A stretch of DNA of 14,762 bases from a virus. The notes below the pieces were generated by a model. That model saw nothing but the letters and a program-made list of their open reading frames with translations, did not search any database and had not been told where the DNA came from. A program made the translations under genes and the position numbers. The stretch lies in the UHGV virus genome UHGV-0206032; one strand, written 5' to 3'. Positions 5,603 to 13,204 of the stretch are shown piece by piece (the first letter of the stretch is position 1; each line of letters opens with the position of its first letter).

Positions 5603-5793
5603 TGCACGTTATCGCCGCACCTGGTCATCGGGTGCCCATGGATGAAGATCCGTACAAGTACATCGAAGAGGCCGAGTCCGTCGACGTGCCAGATACCTCC
5701 TACTACCGACGCCGCTTGGCGGCTGGTGAACTGCTCGCCGCGAAGAAACCACGCGGCAGTGCCAAACAACTCGCACAGGAATCCGCTGAATGA
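5602..5793 (+). CDS. Small tail-associated protein (DUF2635-like, Mu gp38 position)
   Basis: 63-aa ORF, TAATG-coupled upstream and ATGA-coupled to the sheath gene. Motifs APGHRVPMDEDP and DTSYYRRRL resemble the small conserved protein found just upstream of sheath genes. Confidence 0.45.
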   Translation: MHVIAAPGHRVPMDEDPYKYIEEAESVDVPDTSYYRRRLAAGELLAAKKPRGSAKQLAQESAE

Positions 5794-6890
5794 GCATTTC
5801 CTTTGACACCATCCCGGCGTCGATTCGCAAGCCGGGCGTTTACATTGAGTTCAACACCAGCCTGGCGGTACGGACGCTGCCCACCAACAAGCAGAGTGTC
5901 TGCCTGATCGTGCCCCTGGGCGTCGATGCTACTGTTGCGGCCAACGTGCCTACGCCGTTCTACAGCGCAGCCGAGGCCAAAGCCTTGTTCGGCGGGACAG
6001 TGGCCGAGGAAATGGCGGACGCGTTTATCACCGCCTATCGGTACGCCTCCATCTCGGCCGTAGGTGTGGTGGTCGAGGGCGAAACAGAACCCGACATCAA
6101 GGCTGCTTTGGACTCGACCGCCATGGGTGGTTTCACCATCCTGGTGCCTGCCTGGTTTAGCCAGGTCGCACTCACTGCATTGCGCACGCACATCCAGACC
6201 TACACCAGTTCGATGGAGCAACAGGGAATCATCGGTGTGGCGGCGCTGACCAGCACCTTGTCGGCCGCGACCACGTTGGCCACGTCGCTGAACTCCGGCG
6301 CAATCAGCTTGGCAGTCCTGCCGGGAACTGCATCGACTGCGCGCCAGGTAGCCGCCGCGTATGCCGCGATGATCGCCTCGGAAGAAGATCCAGCGCGGCC
6401 GCTGAATACCCTGGTGTTGACTGGTATCAAGGTTCCGCCGGTCACTCAGCGTCTCGGTCGTACAGAGCAGGAAACGGCGCTGGCCAATGGTGTCACGCCG
6501 CTGGAGGTTGCGGCCGGTGATGTCATCCAGATCGTCCGTGCAGTGACCACCTACACCAAGTCTGCTGCTGGTGCCACGGACGTGTCGCTGCTGGATTTGA
6601 CCACTATCCGCACTCTGTATTACGTGCGTGTGGCCATTCGTGACCGCATCCGGCTGCGCTTCCCACGCTCGAAACTCTCCAGCAAGACGCCTGCGGCTGT
6701 TCGTGGCGAGATCCTGGACGTACTCAAGAAGCTGGAAGAGTTGGAAATCGTCGAAGAGGTGGACGCCAACGCCGATGGTCTGGTGGTTGAGCGTTCACTC
6801 CAGGACGTAAACCGCCTCAATGCAACCATTCCTGTCGATGTAGTCAACGGCCTGCATGTGTTCGCCGGTCGCATTGACCTGCTCCTGTAA
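5790..6890 (+). CDS. Tail sheath protein (Mu L-like)
   Basis: 366-aa ORF. N-terminus (TIPASIRKPGVYIEFNTSLA) matches the characteristic sheath N-terminal pattern; followed by a ~120-aa tube gene, as expected for contractile tails. Confidence 0.7.
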   Translation: MSISFDTIPASIRKPGVYIEFNTSLAVRTLPTNKQSVCLIVPLGVDATVAANVPTPFYSAAEAKALFGGTVAEEMADAFITAYRYASISAVGVVVEGETEPDIKAALDSTAMGGFTILVPAWFSQVALTALRTHIQTYTSSMEQQGIIGVAALTSTLSAATTLATSLNSGAISLAVLPGTASTARQVAAAYAAMIASEEDPARPLNTLVLTGIKVPPVTQRLGRTEQETALANGVTPLEVAAGDVIQIVRAVTTYTKSAAGATDVSLLDLTTIRTLYYVRVAIRDRIRLRFPRSKLSSKTPAAVRGEILDVLKKLEELEIVEEVDANADGLVVERSLQDVNRLNATIPVDVVNGLHVFAGRIDLLL

Positions 6891-6903: not shown

Positions 6904-7275
6904 ATGGCTGATAACTACGTAGGGCAGATCGTCCTGGAGATCAACGGCACCGATTATGAGGTGACGAGCGTTGAGCCGAGCCTTAAGACCGGGCGTAAGG
7001 TCGTCAAGACGATGAACCGCACAGGCCGTCCCACCGGCACGGCAAAAGGTATTGAAGAGCACGAGCTGAAAATCTCGGTGCCAATTCCGAAGACTGGCGA
7101 GCCAGACTGGCGGGCACTGATGGACGCCAAGCTGACCATCTATCCGCAGGACGGTGGCAGTAAGCGCCAGACCTGGACCGGGTGTTCTTTGATGGAGATG
7201 GGCAGTAAGTACCAGGTAGAGGGTGAAGCCACCCGCGACCTGACCATCGCCGCCCTCAACTACTACCCGGAGTGA
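6904..7275 (+). CDS. Tail tube protein (Mu M-like)
   Basis: 123-aa ORF with RBS AGAGGTGA. Size and position (sheath -> tube -> chaperone -> tape measure) match tail tube proteins. Confidence 0.65.
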   Translation: MADNYVGQIVLEINGTDYEVTSVEPSLKTGRKVVKTMNRTGRPTGTAKGIEEHELKISVPIPKTGEPDWRALMDAKLTIYPQDGGSKRQTWTGCSLMEMGSKYQVEGEATRDLTIAALNYYPE

Positions 7276-7279
7276 TGCA

Positions 7280-7666
7280 ATGACCGAGCAATCAAGCAAG
7301 CGCTGGGAAGGACTGAGCATCACCCGCGAACTCAAAATGGGTGTCTATTACTCCGGCCTGCGCCACAAGACCTTCACTTTGCGTGTTCCTGTTGCGGGCG
7401 ACCTGGTCGCCGCGCAGGAGCTGCACCCAGGCGCACCATTTCAACTGATCACCCTGGAGGTTTATCGCCGTCAGTTGTTGTCCCTGGGCGAGATTCCCGC
7501 CGACGCGTTGACCACTGAATTGCTCCTGGGCGAACTCACCGAGAGCGACCTGGCCATCATTGCCGATGCCGATGCCGAGCTGGAAAAAAAGCTCGCGCCG
7601 CCGAGCGCGGCAACGTCGACTGGCGACGAATCGAACACGCCTTCGTCCGCCACGGCTACCGGCTAG
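7280..7666 (+). CDS. Tail assembly chaperone (short, in-frame product)
   Basis: 128-aa ORF between tube and tape measure genes. Contains an in-frame A_AAA_AAG slippery heptamer at 7585-7591. Confidence 0.6.
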   Translation: MTEQSSKRWEGLSITRELKMGVYYSGLRHKTFTLRVPVAGDLVAAQELHPGAPFQLITLEVYRRQLLSLGEIPADALTTELLLGELTESDLAIIADADAELEKKLAPPSAATSTGDESNTPSSATATG

Positions 7667-7788
7667 AAGAGCTTCGCCAGATGACCAGGGCCGAGATCGA
7701 TGCACGTATTGATCTGATCATCGGCAAGGTCAAAGGCACCCGCTATGTCAGTCAGCGCCAGCGCAAGGCGTTGCCTAAACCCAAATGA
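7280..7788 (+). CDS. Tail assembly chaperone, predicted -1 frameshift fusion product (slip at 7585-7591)
   Basis: After a -1 slip on A_AAA_AAG the -1 frame stays open for 65 codons (ARAAERGNVDWRRIEHAFVRHGYRLEELRQMTRAEIDARIDLIIGKVKGTRYVSQRQRKALPKPK) to TGA at 7786-7788, ending just before the tape measure start. Mirrors the conserved G/GT-type frameshift of long-tailed phages. Confidence 0.5.
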
Positions 7789-7843: not shown

Positions 7844-10261
7844 ATGTCCGATCTGCGCGTCGCGCTTCGTTTCCAGGCCCATGCGGGTAACAGTCGGCGC
7901 GAGATCGAGCAGATCAACCGTGACCTGCGCAAGGCTGGCAAGGAGGGCGCCAAGGCTCTGGCCGATGAAAGCTGGAAAGCGTCTTCTGCCATCACCAAGG
8001 TCGGCCAGGTCGGGGCCAACAGCTATAAAGTGATCCGTGCAGCAATGCGCGAAACCGCTACGGCTGGTTCCGGCACGCGCATCGAGGTCAGCAAGACAAC
8101 TGCTGAACTCAAGGATATGGCCAATGCAGCTCGCAAGGCTGCACGAGATGCGAAAACTGAGTTGCAGAACACCGACCGGCAAGGCGTGCAGCCCTTGCGC
8201 CAGAGCGTTGATAAGACAGAGGCATCCTTCCGGCGCATGGCACAGAACAGCGGTCGCAGCCTGCGAACTTTGAAAACCATCGCTATGGGTGTGCGTCAGG
8301 AGTTTGATCGCATCAAGGGGCTGGGCGGGAGCATGCAAGGGAAACTGGCTGGGTTAGGTGTGGGAGTCGGTGTTGTGTCGGGCGTGACATCAAGTGCAAA
8401 GCTGGACCGCCAGCTTATACGTACTCAACAAACTGCGGGCATGTCAGTTGAACAGCGTGAAGAATGGCGTGGTGAACAGTGGCGCTTAGCAAAAACCTAC
8501 GGCATTGAACGTGAGCAAGTTCAAACAGGGTTCGATACCTTGATCGCAAGTGGTATGTCCTACGATAAAGCGAAAGCAAGTTCCGGAGCTATCGCTCAAG
8601 CAACAGCAGTTACGGGGGCTGACTCCGGGATTCTGGCTAAAGCGCTTATAACTGGTGCGAGCGCTTTTGATATTGACCTCTCTAAGCCCAACGCTGCTGT
8701 AGACATCTTGCAAAAAATGATCGTTGCTGGCCGTCTGGGTAACGCTGAACTTGAGAATCTATCAAGCATTTTCCCTAAAGTGGGGCAGGACGCCAAGTCG
8801 GCGGGCATGTCCATGGCTCAGTCTCTTTCGTTTGTTGAAACGTTATCTCTTATTGAACTTGAACCTGATCGTCTAGGAACTCTGGCGCAATCGACTTTGC
8901 GTGCATTCAACAATGGTAATTACCGCAAGAGCGTTACGAAAAATACAGGCGTCGATTTTTTCAACAAGGATAAGTCTGTAAGGAATACTCAGGATGTATT
9001 TCTTGACCTACAGCACAAATACAAATCACTTAAGAATGACAAAGATCGCGCTCGATTCATGGATGTGGTGTTTGGAAAGATGGACCAGGACACGCAAAAG
9101 GGAGTTAAGGCGTTCTTGACTGGTGATCGACTGGAGAACTTTGCTAAAAGTACCGGGGACATTAATAACGCCAAAGGCGTTATTGAAAAGGATCTGGCCG
9201 ATAACATGAGCAGTTCGACTGCTGTCGGTTCTCGAATGAAGGCCAGCCTTGGCGAAGCCATCGACCGTATGGCGAAGCCATTGAACAAAGGCTTTGCAGA
9301 CCTCGGCAGTTACCTGCTCGATGATCTGAATTTGTCAGGCGAGCAAATGCTGGTCGGTGGTGCCGCACTGGGAGTCGGTGGCTACTACGCCGGACGCGGT
9401 GCCAAAGCAGGCGCAGGCGCTTTGCTCAACAAGTTTATGGGTGGACCGGAGACCTTGAAAAACATCGCCGTGGGCAAGGTGTTGGAAGAAGCCACGGGCG
9501 TTACATCTGTTTTCGTCACCAACTGGCCTGCTGGTGCGCCCCTCGGTATTGGCAGCGGTCCCGACCTGCCCAATGGTCCCAGTTCCGGTAAAGGCAACGG
9601 GAAGCCAGGTGGTTTTATCACCCCGTGGCTAGCACCCTTGGCTTTAGCTGCGACGGCCACGCAGATCGGCGGGGCAAGTGCGACGGCTACAGACGAAGGT
9701 CGCCTCGATGCTGCCCAGCGCAGCAAGCTGCTTAACGATGATCAGCGAACGTACCAGGCGTCCTTCTACCGCAACCGCATGGCCCTGGCCGACAGGAATC
9801 CCAGCCAGTCATCTGATTGGCTGTCCTCAGAGGCCCAACGCCTGGCGCACCATGAAACCGGCCTGACAGCTGCGGGCCTGCCCATCGATGGCGCAAACAC
9901 CTGGGCCCAAGGCATCGCCGGTCGTGCCCTGGCTGCGGGTGCCAACACCTTCACAGCACAACAACGCCTGCGGGACATGATGGCGCAATCCGGTACCAGC
10001 CAGCCTTCGACCTGGTTAGCCGACCAGGCGCAACGCCTGGCTAACCCGTTGTCGGGCGGCAGCATGGCTGGCTTTCCTGGAATTGCCGGCAACGGCTCCG
10101 CACCAGGTGCAATCGGTGCCAATCCTGCCGCACAAGCCGCCGAGGAACGCCTCCGCTCCTTGCTCACCCAGCCGCTGATCATTGAAGTGCGTACTGACTC
10201 ACGGATGATCCAGGCCGAGGTTGAGCGTCGAACTGATATTCAGATGAGGCGCGGCGGATGA
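7844..10261 (+). CDS. Tail tape measure protein
   Basis: 805-aa ORF with RBS GGGAG, downstream of the chaperone. Has Gly-rich/hydrophobic stretches, a conserved-looking central core and C-terminal repeats. Stop overlaps the next start (ATGA). Confidence 0.85.
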   Translation: MSDLRVALRFQAHAGNSRREIEQINRDLRKAGKEGAKALADESWKASSAITKVGQVGANSYKVIRAAMRETATAGSGTRIEVSKTTAELKDMANAARKAARDAKTELQNTDRQGVQPLRQSVDKTEASFRRMAQNSGRSLRTLKTIAMGVRQEFDRIKGLGGSMQGKLAGLGVGVGVVSGVTSSAKLDRQLIRTQQTAGMSVEQREEWRGEQWRLAKTYGIEREQVQTGFDTLIASGMSYDKAKASSGAIAQATAVTGADSGILAKALITGASAFDIDLSKPNAAVDILQKMIVAGRLGNAELENLSSIFPKVGQDAKSAGMSMAQSLSFVETLSLIELEPDRLGTLAQSTLRAFNNGNYRKSVTKNTGVDFFNKDKSVRNTQDVFLDLQHKYKSLKNDKDRARFMDVVFGKMDQDTQKGVKAFLTGDRLENFAKSTGDINNAKGVIEKDLADNMSSSTAVGSRMKASLGEAIDRMAKPLNKGFADLGSYLLDDLNLSGEQMLVGGAALGVGGYYAGRGAKAGAGALLNKFMGGPETLKNIAVGKVLEEATGVTSVFVTNWPAGAPLGIGSGPDLPNGPSSGKGNGKPGGFITPWLAPLALAATATQIGGASATATDEGRLDAAQRSKLLNDDQRTYQASFYRNRMALADRNPSQSSDWLSSEAQRLAHHETGLTAAGLPIDGANTWAQGIAGRALAAGANTFTAQQRLRDMMAQSGTSQPSTWLADQAQRLANPLSGGSMAGFPGIAGNGSAPGAIGANPAAQAAEERLRSLLTQPLIIEVRTDSRMIQAEVERRTDIQMRRGG

Positions 10262-11601
10262 GCTGGGCAGAGAACCTGCTGGACGCTTCCTTCCGTGGCG
10301 TCCCGCTCCAAGTAGAAGGCGAAAGCCTACAATGGCAACGCGCCCTGTCTGAGCATGGGACGCCGTTCAAGGATGGCGACCGGGTCAAAGACCTGGGCCG
10401 TGGTGCGCGCCGTATCCCCATGCAAGTAGTGGTGTTCGGCGTCAATTACGAGATCGAACTCCAGAACATCCTCCGTACCTTGAATACACCAGGTACGGGC
10501 GAACTGATCCACCCGATCTACGGCAGCATGAATGTCGTCAGCAGCACCGGCGAGGTAAAGCACAGCGCCGAGCGGCCAGACTATGCCGAGATCAGCATAG
10601 TGTTTGTTGAGGACACGCCCGACGCTCCATTCTTCGACCGGCAGTTTGAATTTGTCGATGTCGGCGTATTGGGGTTGGAGGATGAATACACCTGGCAGGA
10701 TGGCATCTTCGATCTGTTCGGCCGTATTGATTCCCTGGTCGGCGAGATTCAATCGTGGATCGGCGGGGGCTGGGTAGGACTGATCGAAAAGGCCCTGGGC
10801 TTGCCTGGCATTGGCCTGCGCTTGCAACAGCTGCGCTCGCAGATCATGGGTGTGGTGTCCGGCGTCGGGTCGATGGCCAAGCGGCCATCAGGGGCGTTTG
10901 ATCCCCTGGTCGACCTGATGCGCACACCCTCGGAGATCCGAGGCGCCATCCAGGGCAGCACGCCCAGTTCGTCAACGACGCTACTAGCTCGCACTGGCGT
11001 ACCCGTTAGCTTGCCTGGTAATGCCAGCCTGGTGGCGGATGCTGCGCGTGCGGGTACTGGCTTTCTGATAGGTGCCCGACAAGGTGTGGCACCCACCGTC
11101 GGCCTGCTGATCGACGGCGTACCGACCAATGCGGGCAGCGCCCTGGTGCTGCTGCCCGACGGAATGCCGGATGATCCGGTTACCGCTAACGGTTTCGCCC
11201 TGGTCGTCCTGGTCATCACTGAACTGGCACTGGCTCACGCCCAGGCGGTAGCCACCGTCATCGAGGACGAAGCCGATACGCCGACGTTGAGTCCATTAGA
11301 GCTGGAAGGCCTGGTTAATTTGGTGCGCTCGCTGGTGCAGTCGTCCATCCTTCTACAACGTCACCTTTTCGACGTAGAGACCGCACTGCCGATCATTGAT
11401 GCATTGCGCAACGTCGCCGCGTTGATCCAGGCCCGCGCCCGTCAAGTCATTTTGCAAAGTCCTCCGATGCTTGAGCGGGTGGTTGAGACGCCTGCAAGCC
11501 TACATTTGCTGGCTCACCGCTGGTATGGCGGGCCGAGTGGAAGGAAAAGGTCGAAGCGGCCGCTGCTCGCGTCGACAAGATCGCCAAAAAAGGCGGCATG
11601 A
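10258..11601 (+). CDS. DNA circulation protein (Mu N / gp43-like)
   Basis: 447-aa ORF. N-terminus (ASFRGVPLQVEG, LGRGARRIP, GTGELIHPIYGS) matches the DNA circulation protein N-terminal domain as recalled for Mu N. The 3' end is uncertain: its last ~40 codons overlap other frames (see findings). Confidence 0.75.
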   Translation: MSWAENLLDASFRGVPLQVEGESLQWQRALSEHGTPFKDGDRVKDLGRGARRIPMQVVVFGVNYEIELQNILRTLNTPGTGELIHPIYGSMNVVSSTGEVKHSAERPDYAEISIVFVEDTPDAPFFDRQFEFVDVGVLGLEDEYTWQDGIFDLFGRIDSLVGEIQSWIGGGWVGLIEKALGLPGIGLRLQQLRSQIMGVVSGVGSMAKRPSGAFDPLVDLMRTPSEIRGAIQGSTPSSSTTLLARTGVPVSLPGNASLVADAARAGTGFLIGARQGVAPTVGLLIDGVPTNAGSALVLLPDGMPDDPVTANGFALVVLVITELALAHAQAVATVIEDEADTPTLSPLELEGLVNLVRSLVQSSILLQRHLFDVETALPIIDALRNVAALIQARARQVILQSPPMLERVVETPASLHLLAHRWYGGPSGRKRSKRPLLASTRSPKKAA

Positions 11602-11650
11602 GTCAGACAACAGCGGACGAAATCCGGCGCGAGATCCTGGGGATGGCATC

Positions 11651-13204
11651 GTGAGTCTGCCCCTCGTCCTAGACAGCACCGCCACTTTGCTTGCCCCAGC
11701 GGTCTTACTCGACTATCAGAAAGAGTGGATCGGTATACGCGCCCCACTCAAGGTTGGCGAGAAATCCCGGCGTATCGGTCTCACATGGGCTGAGGCGGCA
11801 GACAACGTCCTGGTAGCCGCGTCCGAAAAATCGGCGGGCGGTCAAACTGTCTATTACCTCGGCTACAACCAAGACATGACCGTGGAGTACATCCAGGCAT
11901 GCGCCATGTGGGCGCGGGCCTATAACTACGCGGCCGAGCAAATAGAAGAAGGCATCTGGCCCGACAGCGACCCCGACAAACACATCAAGACCTACACCAT
12001 CGCGTTTCCCAGCGGCCACCGCATCGTCGCGCTGACCAGTCGCCCGTCCAACCTGCGTGGGCGTCAGGGCGTTGTCGTGATCGACGAAGCCGCGTTCCAT
12101 GCGGACTTGGCCGAGCTGCTCAAAGCTGCAATGGCTCTGTTGATCTGGGGCGGTGAAGTCCATGTGATCAGCACCCACGACGGTACGGAGAACCCCTTCA
12201 ACGACCTGGTCAACGAAATCCGGTCAGGCAAGCGCAATGGTGAAGTGTTCCGCTGCACGTTCGGTGAAGCCGTTGCCGATGGTCTGTACAAGCGTGTCTG
12301 CCTGCGTAAAGGCATTGGGTACAGGCTTGAGGATCAAATCGCCTGGGTGAATGACGTATACGACTTCTACGGCGATGCAGCCGACGAAGAATTAGACTGC
12401 GTGCCATCCCAGGGTGGCGGTGCCTTCCTCAGCATGGCCCTGGTTGAGCAGCGCAGTAACCGTGACGTGCCGGTACTGCGCCTGGCATACCCGCAGGGTT
12501 ACGAAACCATCGCCGAACACTTGCGCCTGGCCGAGTCCCTGGAGTGGTGCGAAGAGCATTTGCTCCCGCTGCTTTCGGCCATTCCCCTGGACGTTCAGAG
12601 CTTCTATGGCATGGACTTCGGGCGCTCCGGAGACCTCTCGGTCTTCTGGCCATTGCTCAAAGAGCAGAATCTGCGCAAACGCACGCCCTTTGTGGTCGAG
12701 CTGCGTAACGTCCCGTTCAAGCAACAACTCCAGATTAAGTTTTACATCATTCGTCGCTTACCCAACTTCCTCAAAGGCGCCGACGACGCCAGGGGCAACG
12801 GCTCGCAACTGTCGGAAGACACTGCCGTCGAGTTCGGCTTCAACCGCATCGAGCGTGTGATGCTCACCGAGGGCTGGTATCGCGACAACATGCCGCCGTT
12901 CAAGGCCGCCCTGGAAGATGACACCTTCTACGACATCCCGGCCGACAAGGATGTGGTTAGCGACGTGCGTGCCTTTCGGATGGTCAAGGGCGTGGCTCGC
13001 ATCCCCGAAAAGCGCACCAACGAAAAGGGCGAAAAGTCCGGACCGAAGCGCCATGGCGACGCCGGTATCGCGGCCGTACTGGCCGACTACGCCTCTCGTC
13101 AAGATGTCGAAATCTTCGAATATCACCGCGTCCAGCCAGCCGTCCAGCATGATCGCGAGATCAAGCACGGGGCTGGGTGGCGCTCTCAGAAAGGCATTTG
13201 GTAA
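11651..13204 (+). CDS. Terminase large subunit (Mu gp28-like)
   Basis: Frame of track ORF 11471..13204, but start proposed at GTG 11651 (RBS GGGGA 7 nt upstream); the upstream in-frame part is Arg-rich junk overlapping gene N. Motifs: LLDYQKEW near N-terminus, Walker-B-like VVVIDEAAF, ISTHDG, nuclease-domain-like GMDFGRSGDLSV, C-terminal RHGDAGIAAVLA. Confidence 0.75.
   Translation: MSLPLVLDSTATLLAPAVLLDYQKEWIGIRAPLKVGEKSRRIGLTWAEAADNVLVAASEKSAGGQTVYYLGYNQDMTVEYIQACAMWARAYNYAAEQIEEGIWPDSDPDKHIKTYTIAFPSGHRIVALTSRPSNLRGRQGVVVIDEAAFHADLAELLKAAMALLIWGGEVHVISTHDGTENPFNDLVNEIRSGKRNGEVFRCTFGEAVADGLYKRVCLRKGIGYRLEDQIAWVNDVYDFYGDAADEELDCVPSQGGGAFLSMALVEQRSNRDVPVLRLAYPQGYETIAEHLRLAESLEWCEEHLLPLLSAIPLDVQSFYGMDFGRSGDLSVFWPLLKEQNLRKRTPFVVELRNVPFKQQLQIKFYIIRRLPNFLKGADDARGNGSQLSEDTAVEFGFNRIERVMLTEGWYRDNMPPFKAALEDDTFYDIPADKDVVSDVRAFRMVKGVARIPEKRTNEKGEKSGPKRHGDAGIAAVLADYASRQDVEIFEYHRVQPAVQHDREIKHGAGWRSQKGIW

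What the first reader, a model, noticed from the sequence alone, without database searches (positions are those of the whole stretch)
9800..10062. Internal repeats in the C-terminal part of the tape measure protein
Two ~20-aa units about 65 residues apart share the pattern SQ-S-WL---AQRLA (SQSSDWLSSEAQRLAHHETG and SQPSTWLADQAQRLANPLSG) and share CAACGCCTGGC at DNA level. They are flanked by Gly/Ala-rich segments. Tape measure repeats are typical and can affect tail length.
Basis: seen in the sequence. Interest (0 to 1): 0.25.

Follow-up and report, generated by a model that had tools for sequence, protein, structure and literature searches.

The report
Duplicated segment in phage tape measure
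The two look-alike motifs are a real, old tandem duplication of a ~61-65-residue segment near the end of the tail tape measure protein of a Mu-like Pseudomonas prophage. Relatives carry one or two copies, which is an ordinary way for such proteins to change length.

Summary
The two 20-aa motifs (nt 9803-9862 and 9998-10057) are the cores of two adjacent units: aa 643-707 and aa 708-768 of the 805-aa tape measure protein (TMP, 7844-10261). The best off-diagonal self-match scores 85, against 39.5±5 in shuffles. A profile built from either unit alone finds the other. The units share 41% aa and 49% nt identity, so the duplication is old. Unit 2 is under purifying selection (dN/dS 0.12-0.23).

Close homologues in Pseudomonas prophages fall into two length classes. 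In the ~800-806-aa class, 64 of 68 have two units. In the ~735-749-aa class, 51 of 51 have one. The length difference is one unit. A Janthinobacterium homologue also has two units.

There is no further periodicity, so this is a single duplication and not a classic multi-copy TMP repeat array. It lies just upstream of the conserved C-terminal segment that, by analogy with Mu gp42, anchors in the baseplate hub. Scaled on Mu (about 1.5 Å per residue, 35 Å per ring), one unit corresponds to about 2-3 tail rings. That effect is inferred, not shown.

One unexpected lead: long distal TMP spacers always co-occur with insertions in a loop of the adjacent gp43-like tube initiator.

Verdict: ordinary kind, modest interest.

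The parts
7844..10261 (+). Tail tape measure protein gene (805 aa). Its stop overlaps the start of the next gene (ATGA).
   Evidence: PF10145 over aa 215-411, E 1.4e-20. phrog_973 'tail length tape measure protein', E 1e-88. Homologues at 97% identity are named 'phage tail tape measure protein' in Pseudomonas genomes. Mostly helical in the AF2 model.
9770..9964 (+). Repeat unit 1 (aa 643-707): end of one helix, loop, Trp-helix WLSSEAQRLAHHET, loop, then a second Trp-helix.
   Evidence: Self-alignment. Found by a profile built only from unit 2, iE 3e-8. AF2 on the C-terminal fragment gives pLDDT 87-94 for aa 620-679, with helices at 632-651 and 657-672.
9965..10147 (+). Repeat unit 2 (aa 708-768): same start and same Trp-helix (WLADQAQRLAN), but the second half has become a Gly/Pro/Ala-rich coil. 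It is four residues shorter than unit 1.
   Evidence: Found by a profile built only from unit 1, iE 2e-4. dN/dS is 0.12-0.23 between homologues. AF2 predicts a helix at 724-733 and a coil of about 27 aa, both at low pLDDT. The segment is absent from the ~741-aa homologues.
9803..9862 (+).
9998..10057 (+).
10148..10258 (+). Conserved C-terminal segment (aa 769-805, RLRSLLTQPLIIEVRTDSRMIQAEVERRTDIQMRRGG). It begins like a third unit (RLR..LL) and then forms a helix plus a beta-hairpin. It is the presumed hub/spike anchor.
   Evidence: Conserved in one-unit and two-unit forms and in distant homologues. AF2 predicts a helix at 761-774 and strands at 778-784 and 789-795. In Mu only the extreme C-terminus of TMP gp42 (residues 674-690) is ordered, in the hub/spike complex (PMC11915804). 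The analogy is an inference.
10258..11530 (+). Gene for a gp43-like tube initiator / DNA circularisation protein N. In this window it is cut about 32 codons before its natural stop by a non-natural junction.
   Evidence: PF07157 E 7e-24. Matches Mu gp43 (PDB 9ki1) over aa 10-120. Junction located. Its allelic type goes with the TMP C-terminal type.

Best explanation
This is an old in-frame tandem duplication of a ~61-65-residue helix-loop-helix segment of the tape measure protein (TMP) of a Mu-like contractile-tailed Pseudomonas prophage. It sits directly upstream of the conserved C-terminal segment that, by analogy with Mu gp42, docks in the baseplate hub.

Shown here:
- The two units are homologous.
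- The second unit keeps the Trp-containing amphipathic helix (W-L-x3-A-Q-R-L-A), while its distal half has decayed into a Gly/Pro/Ala linker.
- Unit 2 is kept under purifying selection.
- Related prophages carry either one unit (~741 aa) or two (~805 aa).
- The TMP gene is a recombination mosaic, so the one-unit and two-unit C-terminal modules are combined with different central modules.

Inferred: the extra unit adds 64 residues to the baseplate-proximal end of the ruler. The TMP sets how far tube and sheath polymerise. Mu has 30 rings of 35 Å for a gp42 of at least 690 aa, which is about 1.5 Å per residue. On that scale the two-unit form would give a tail about 2-3 rings (about 10 nm, roughly 9%) longer than the one-unit form.
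For: Homology of the units: self-match score 85 against 39.5±5 in shuffles. The reciprocal single-unit profiles each find the other unit, iE 2e-4 and 3e-8.

Age: 41% aa and 49% nt identity between units, lowest at third codon positions.

Selection: dN/dS of unit 2 is 0.12-0.23, like the rest of the gene.

Copy-number dimorphism: 64 of 68 long forms have two units and 51 of 51 short forms have one. The same holds in species-representative genomes, including a two-unit Janthinobacterium homologue whose second core scores 32 bits.

Mosaicism: all four combinations of central type and C-terminal type exist.

TMP identity and Mu-like context.

Mu geometry and the ordered C-terminal TMP anchor: PMC11915804. 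TMP deletion size scales with tail length, and the C-terminal 60 residues are essential, in TP901-1: PMC5099701.
Against: No virion has been measured, and no cultured phage in the phage collection carries this C-terminal module.

About half of unit 2 is predicted to be coil at low confidence, so the 1.5 Å per residue scaling may not apply.

In TP901-1 part of the TMP C-terminus fills the baseplate cavity and does not count as ruler.

The co-variation with a gp43 loop suggests the segment may have a baseplate-internal role instead.

The direction of the event is not settled. Most outgroups with a recognisable unit have one copy, which favours duplication in the long lineage over loss in the short one. 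The two-unit Janthinobacterium form shows the duplication is old.
Confidence: 0.6

Rival explanations
1. The extra unit is a baseplate-internal spacer, not ruler. It lies in the lumen of the hub and tube-initiator rings, is co-adapted with a longer loop in gp43, and does not change the number of tube and sheath rings.
For: Every locus with a long TMP distal spacer (100-139 aa, of three or more unrelated sequence types) has a gp43 of 454-490 aa, with insertions in one low-complexity loop. All short-spacer loci (46-53 aa) have the minimal loop and a gp43 of 428-442 aa. The insertion positions differ, and the long forms sit in separate places of the gp43 tree. In TP901-1 part of the TMP C-terminus fills the baseplate cavity. 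Unit 2 is half coil in the model.
Against: The two genes are adjacent, so linkage inflates the association, and only about four long lineages were sampled. In Mu no gp43-TMP contact is described, and only 17 TMP residues are ordered in the hub. The loop could not be mapped onto the Mu gp43 structure, because only aa 10-120 align.
Confidence: 0.28
2. The Trp-helix is a functional binding or insertion motif whose dosage matters. It might be a site for the tail-assembly chaperone, or an amphipathic helix that engages the envelope when the TMP is ejected. On this reading the duplication doubles a site and does not add length.
For: The W-L-x3-A-Q-R-L-A core is the best conserved part of both units, while the remainder of unit 2 has decayed. 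Unit 1's helix lies in the only confidently folded part of the C-terminus, pLDDT 87-94.
Against: Other long-spacer homologues have no significant second copy of the core (shuffle test), so a second site is dispensable in forms of similar length. No family or structure match assigns any binding function.
Confidence: 0.1
3. The resemblance is chance or a low-complexity effect in an Ala/Gly/Gln-rich, GC-rich region, or it reflects another element such as the antisense ORF 9766-10182.
For: The region is compositionally biased. An antisense ORF of 138 aa exists.
Against: Composition-preserving shuffles of the C-terminal part never reach the observed score (0 of 500). The profile matches are reciprocal. 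The indel in homologues is exactly one unit. Substitutions are synonymous-biased in the + frame.
Confidence: 0.02

Closest known systems
Tape measure protein gp42 of Escherichia phage Mu (cryo-EM, PMC11915804)
   Same: Same gene position: sheath, tube, gp41-like chaperone, TMP, then gp43 tube initiator / DNA circularisation protein N. Contractile tail. In Mu the TMP is a trimer that fills the tube lumen, and its extreme C-terminus is anchored with hub and spike.
   Different: No detectable sequence similarity to Mu gp42 in tblastn or PDB searches. No duplication of this kind is described for Mu. The C-terminal module here is confined to a narrow group, with 10 hits among 1.84 billion representatives.
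Repeat region of the TP901-1 tape measure protein (Mahony et al. 2016, PMC5099701) and lambda gpH length mutants (own knowledge: Katsura and Hendrix 1984)
   Same: Internal repeated sequence in a TMP. In-frame loss or gain of TMP segments changes tail length proportionally. The C-terminal end is essential for initiating tail assembly.
   Different: Those are siphophages. TP901-1 has 29 short units marked by aromatic residues at 11- or 18-residue intervals. Here there are two long units (61-65 aa), no aromatic periodicity, and a location directly next to the C-terminal anchor.
TMP tandem repeats and homorepeats surveyed across phages (Moreno-Rodriguez et al. 2026, PMC13585406)
   Same: Repeats and Ala/Gly-rich tracts are treated as contributors to TMP length variation.
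   Different: [quoted passage not shown] This case is a diverged tandem duplication in a myophage-type TMP. It is too diverged for DNA-level repeat finders.

Membership tests
Phage tail tape measure protein (PF10145 PhageMin_Tail-containing TMPs) | Significant match to the family profile above the curated cut-off | tested here: met
   PF10145 at 74.5 bits against a cut-off of 33.2, over aa 215-411. phrog_973 E 1e-88.
Phage tail tape measure protein (PF10145 PhageMin_Tail-containing TMPs) | Gene lies between the tail-assembly chaperone and the baseplate hub/initiator genes, downstream of sheath and tube | tested here: met
   Sheath 5790-6890, tube 6904-7275, chaperone 7280-7666, TMP 7844-10261, DNA_circ_N gene from 10258. 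Same order in related contigs.
Phage tail tape measure protein (PF10145 PhageMin_Tail-containing TMPs) | Long, predominantly alpha-helical protein | tested here: met
   AF2 with DSSP shows helices over most of aa 3-551 and 597-774. Overall pLDDT is only 51.
Phage tail tape measure protein (PF10145 PhageMin_Tail-containing TMPs) | Protein length determines tail length | not testable with these tools
   Needs virion measurements of one-unit and two-unit forms.
Mu-like (Mu/FluMu-type) myophage structural module | Mu-type portal, F, protease, major head, gp36/gp37, sheath, tube and gp43 genes | tested here: met
   Portal_Mu E 9e-106, DNA_circ_N and the sheath domains. Phage_Mu_F, Mu-like_Pro_N, Mu-like_gpT, Phage_Mu_Gp36 and Gp37 on the natural contig L002. 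gp44-gp48 lie downstream in relatives.
Short-period TMP tandem-repeat arrays (aromatic residues every 11 or 18 residues, many copies) | Many adjacent short units with aromatic periodicity | tested here: not met
   No tandem array found in the gene. Aromatic autocorrelation at lags 11 and 18 gives z = 0.0. Only one significant off-diagonal in the self dot-plot.
Segmental tandem duplication within a TMP, with copy-number variation among relatives | Adjacent homologous units, with homologues differing by whole units | tested here: met

The most novel reading that the evidence does not exclude
The length of the TMP's baseplate-proximal spacer and the length of a central loop of the adjacent tube-initiator protein gp43 (DNA circularisation protein N) evolve together. 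At least three or four independent spacer expansions, of which this duplication is one, are each matched by an independent insertion in the gp43 loop. This would point to a previously undescribed physical or functional coupling between the TMP distal end and gp43 in Mu-like tails.
Probability: 0.25. Interest if true: 0.5.

Novelty: new member of a known kind. Interest (0 to 1): 0.25.

Why it matters
It gives a clean natural pair of tape measure alleles (741 versus 805 aa) in otherwise closely related Pseudomonas Mu-like prophages, differing by exactly one unit next to the hub anchor. That pair allows a simple test of whether residues at the baseplate end of a myophage TMP count as ruler. The answer is known for siphophages such as lambda and TP901-1 but is poorly documented for contractile tails. 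The matched variation in gp43, if real, would add a new contact to the picture of how tail assembly starts. Otherwise this is ordinary TMP evolution.

Tried and rejected
1. Second copy in other long forms. By eye I thought the other long-spacer homologues (L015, L016, L022, P0124, P0125, P0128) also carried a second W-x-x-x-A-x-R-L core. A core profile with shuffle controls does not support this (observed scores of -1.7 or lower, or no match at all, all within the shuffle range). Only the query's class and the Janthinobacterium homologue L023 (32 bits) have a demonstrable second unit.

2. DNA-level repeat tools (repeat finder, Tandem Repeats Finder) do not detect the duplication. It is visible only at protein level.

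3. PDB sequence search with the TMP gave only noise, E 0.04 or worse. Foldseek of the C-terminal model against the PDB gave nothing at E 0.001 or better. NCBIfam gave no family for the TMP, its C-terminal part or gp43.

4. No cultured phage in the phage collection carries this C-terminal module. The only matches are four unannotated metagenomic 'Bacteriophage sp.' records, so no tail measurements could be linked.

5. Mapping the gp43 loop onto the Mu gp43 structure failed, because only aa 10-120 align.

6. The contigs for P0124 and P0126 were too short or were prophage remnants, so they gave no usable gp43.

7. Aromatic 11/18-residue periodicity: absent.

Full report
**Observation**

The + strand ORF 7844..10261 encodes an 805-aa protein. 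SQSSDWLSSEAQRLAHHETG is aa 654-673 (nt 9803-9862) and SQPSTWLADQAQRLANPLSG is aa 719-738 (nt 9998-10057). They are 65 residues apart and 11 of 20 residues are identical. The shared 11-mer CAACGCCTGGC occurs only at 9836 and 10031. It is expected 0.01 times by chance, and 0 of 200 shuffles gave two copies.

A self dot-plot shows that the similarity is much longer than 20 aa. Residues 643-700 match 708-765 with score 85 and 24 of 58 identities.

| Shuffle set | Mean ± sd | Shuffles reaching 85 |
|---|---|---|
| Whole protein | 39.5 ± 5.1 (max 66) | 0 of 200 |
| C-terminal part only | 31 ± 4.4 | 0 of 500 |

A weaker diagonal at offset 61 (aa 690-715 versus 751-776) continues the match after a 4-residue deletion. 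The units are therefore aa 643-707 and aa 708-768, and the conserved tail (aa 769 onward, RLRSLL...) begins like a third unit. All other diagonals score 40 or less, within the shuffle range. There is no tandem array and no aromatic periodicity at lags 11 or 18. At DNA level the units are 49% identical, with third codon positions the least conserved. This explains why the DNA repeat tools see nothing.

**What the gene is**

The protein matches PF10145 (74.5 bits against a cut-off of 33.2) and phrog_973 'tail length tape measure protein' (E 1e-88). It sits in a Mu-like module: sheath 5790-6890, tube 6904-7275, chaperone 7280-7666, TMP, then a DNA_circ_N (gp43-like) gene from 10258. Homologues at 85-97% identity are annotated as tape measure proteins in Pseudomonas genomes. 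The window's exact protein occurs on two assembled contigs with the same gene order. GC content is 58.8%.

**Copy number in relatives**

The 120 best homologues fall into two length classes. An alignment shows that the short forms lack exactly one unit.

| Length class | Units found (unit-1 profile) |
|---|---|
| ~800-806 aa | two units in 64 of 68 |
| ~735-749 aa | one unit in 51 of 51 |

The counts come from a profile built only from unit 1 columns (iE about 2e-4 for unit 2 of the query). A profile built only from unit 2 finds unit 1 (iE 3e-8) and also the single unit of the short forms (6e-7).

In 25 species-representative genomes the same dimorphism appears. A Janthinobacterium homologue (L023, 812 aa, about 50% identical) also has a clear second core, DWMSSQAQRL, at 32 bits with 0 of 100 shuffles reaching it. 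The duplication therefore predates that divergence, consistent with 41% identity between the units.

Other homologues have spacers of 100-139 aa at the same place but no significant second unit. The segment between unit 1 and the C-terminal tail is thus a general hot spot for length change, from 46 to 139 aa. The module as a whole is narrowly distributed, with 10 hits among 1.84 billion representative proteins.

**Selection and mosaicism**

Between the window and two other two-unit loci, dN/dS of unit 2 is 0.12-0.23, like the rest of the gene. Unit 2 is therefore a maintained coding segment, and the antisense ORF 9766-10182 is spurious.

Segment-wise identities show that the TMP gene is a mosaic. 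The central part (aa 201-560) has two allelic types, about 95% and about 60% identical to the query. The segment aa 561-625 has several types. The C-terminal part is either the two-unit or the one-unit type. All four combinations of central type and C-terminal type exist.

**Structure**

AF2 on the whole protein is of low confidence (pLDDT 51) but largely helical. On the C-terminal fragment (aa 600-805), aa 620-679 are confident (pLDDT 87-94) and form three helices, including unit 1's Trp-helix at 657-672. Unit 2 keeps a helix at 724-733, followed by a Gly/Pro/Ala coil of about 27 residues, a helix at 761-774 and a beta-hairpin at 778-795, all at low confidence. No solved structure matches by sequence or by fold.

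**Mechanism (inferred)**

In phage Mu the TMP gp42 is a trimer in the tube lumen. Only its extreme C-terminus (residues 674-690) is ordered, where it is clamped with hub gp44 and spike gp45. gp43 is the tube initiator. The tail has 30 rings with a rise of about 35 Å (PMC11915804). That gives about 1.5 Å per TMP residue. In TP901-1 the size of TMP deletions scales linearly with tail shortening, and the C-terminal 60 residues are needed to start assembly (PMC5099701).

By analogy, the conserved last ~37 residues here are the anchor. The extra 64 residues would add about 96 Å, or 2-3 rings (roughly 9% of the tail). This step is inference. Part of unit 2 is probably not helical, and some C-terminal TMP residues may sit inside the baseplate and not count as ruler.

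**An unexpected association**

The downstream gp43-like protein is 456 aa next to two-unit TMPs and 441 aa next to one-unit TMPs. It is 94-98% identical within a class and about 78% between classes. The difference includes a 15-aa insertion after ARQGVAP.

| TMP distal spacer | Loci | gp43 length | Loop state |
|---|---|---|---|
| 100-139 aa | two-unit type, L015, L016, L022, L034 | 454-490 aa | insertions in the same low-complexity loop, at different exact positions |
| 46-53 aa | all short-spacer loci (about ten lineages) | 428-442 aa | minimal loop |

The long forms occupy separate places in a gp43 tree. If the lineages are treated as independent, the association has p of about 0.001. The genes are adjacent, however, so linkage inflates this. 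The loop could not be placed on the Mu gp43 structure, because only aa 10-120 align. I record this as an unexplained lead, and it underlies the main rival explanation (baseplate-internal spacer).

**Comparison with known cases and verdict**

Internal duplications and repeats in TMPs, and their link to tail length, are well known. This case is a new example. It is a diverged two-copy duplication in a myophage-type TMP next to the hub anchor, with a natural one-copy/two-copy polymorphism. The kind of feature is ordinary and interest is modest. The gp43 co-variation is the only aspect that might lead somewhere new.

Noticed in passing
window 11525-11530 (junction); window 14762 -> 1: The window is circularly permuted relative to the natural gene order. 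Contig L002 runs seamlessly from the window's last 1133 nt into its first 10.8 kb. At 11525-11530 (6-nt microhomology ATGGCG) the gp43-like gene, about 32 codons short of its stop, is joined directly to the start codon of the large terminase gene. The baseplate and tail-fibre genes (gp44 onward) are absent. ORF 10258..11601 and the 5' extension of ORF 11471..13204 are products of this junction. It is probably a circularised or chimeric contig and not biology.
   Followed up: partly
window 10258-11530; loci L001, L004-L022, L034 (gp43 genes): The length of a low-complexity loop in the gp43-like tube initiator (around aa 230-300) tracks the length of the TMP distal spacer across several divergent lineages. 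gp43 is 454-490 aa with spacers of 100-139 aa, and 428-442 aa with spacers of 46-53 aa. The insertion positions differ between lineages.
   Followed up: partly
window 7844-10261 (aa 201-625): The TMP gene is a recombination mosaic. The central part (aa 201-560) occurs as two allelic types, about 95% and about 60% identical. The segment aa 561-625 occurs as several types, down to about 30% identity. These are combined freely with the one-unit or two-unit C-terminal module.
   Followed up: partly
window 7681-7788: A 35-codon ORF directly after the tail-assembly chaperone gene (7280-7666) is called as a gene in several related contigs (35-36 aa in L002, L003, L005, L006). It may be the frameshift-extension part of a G/GT-like chaperone pair. 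This was not examined.
   Followed up: no
phage-collection hits MT838328, MT835710, MT836396, MT840066: The only matches in the phage collection are unannotated 'Bacteriophage sp.' scaffolds from human faecal samples. All named genomic homologues are Pseudomonas, mainly the fluorescens group. The host is therefore most likely Pseudomonas, and the faecal records probably reflect transient or contaminant Pseudomonas.
   Followed up: no
loci L027, L028, L033: Some homologous TMP genes are not followed by a gp43 gene, which suggests decayed prophage remnants that end at the TMP.
   Followed up: no
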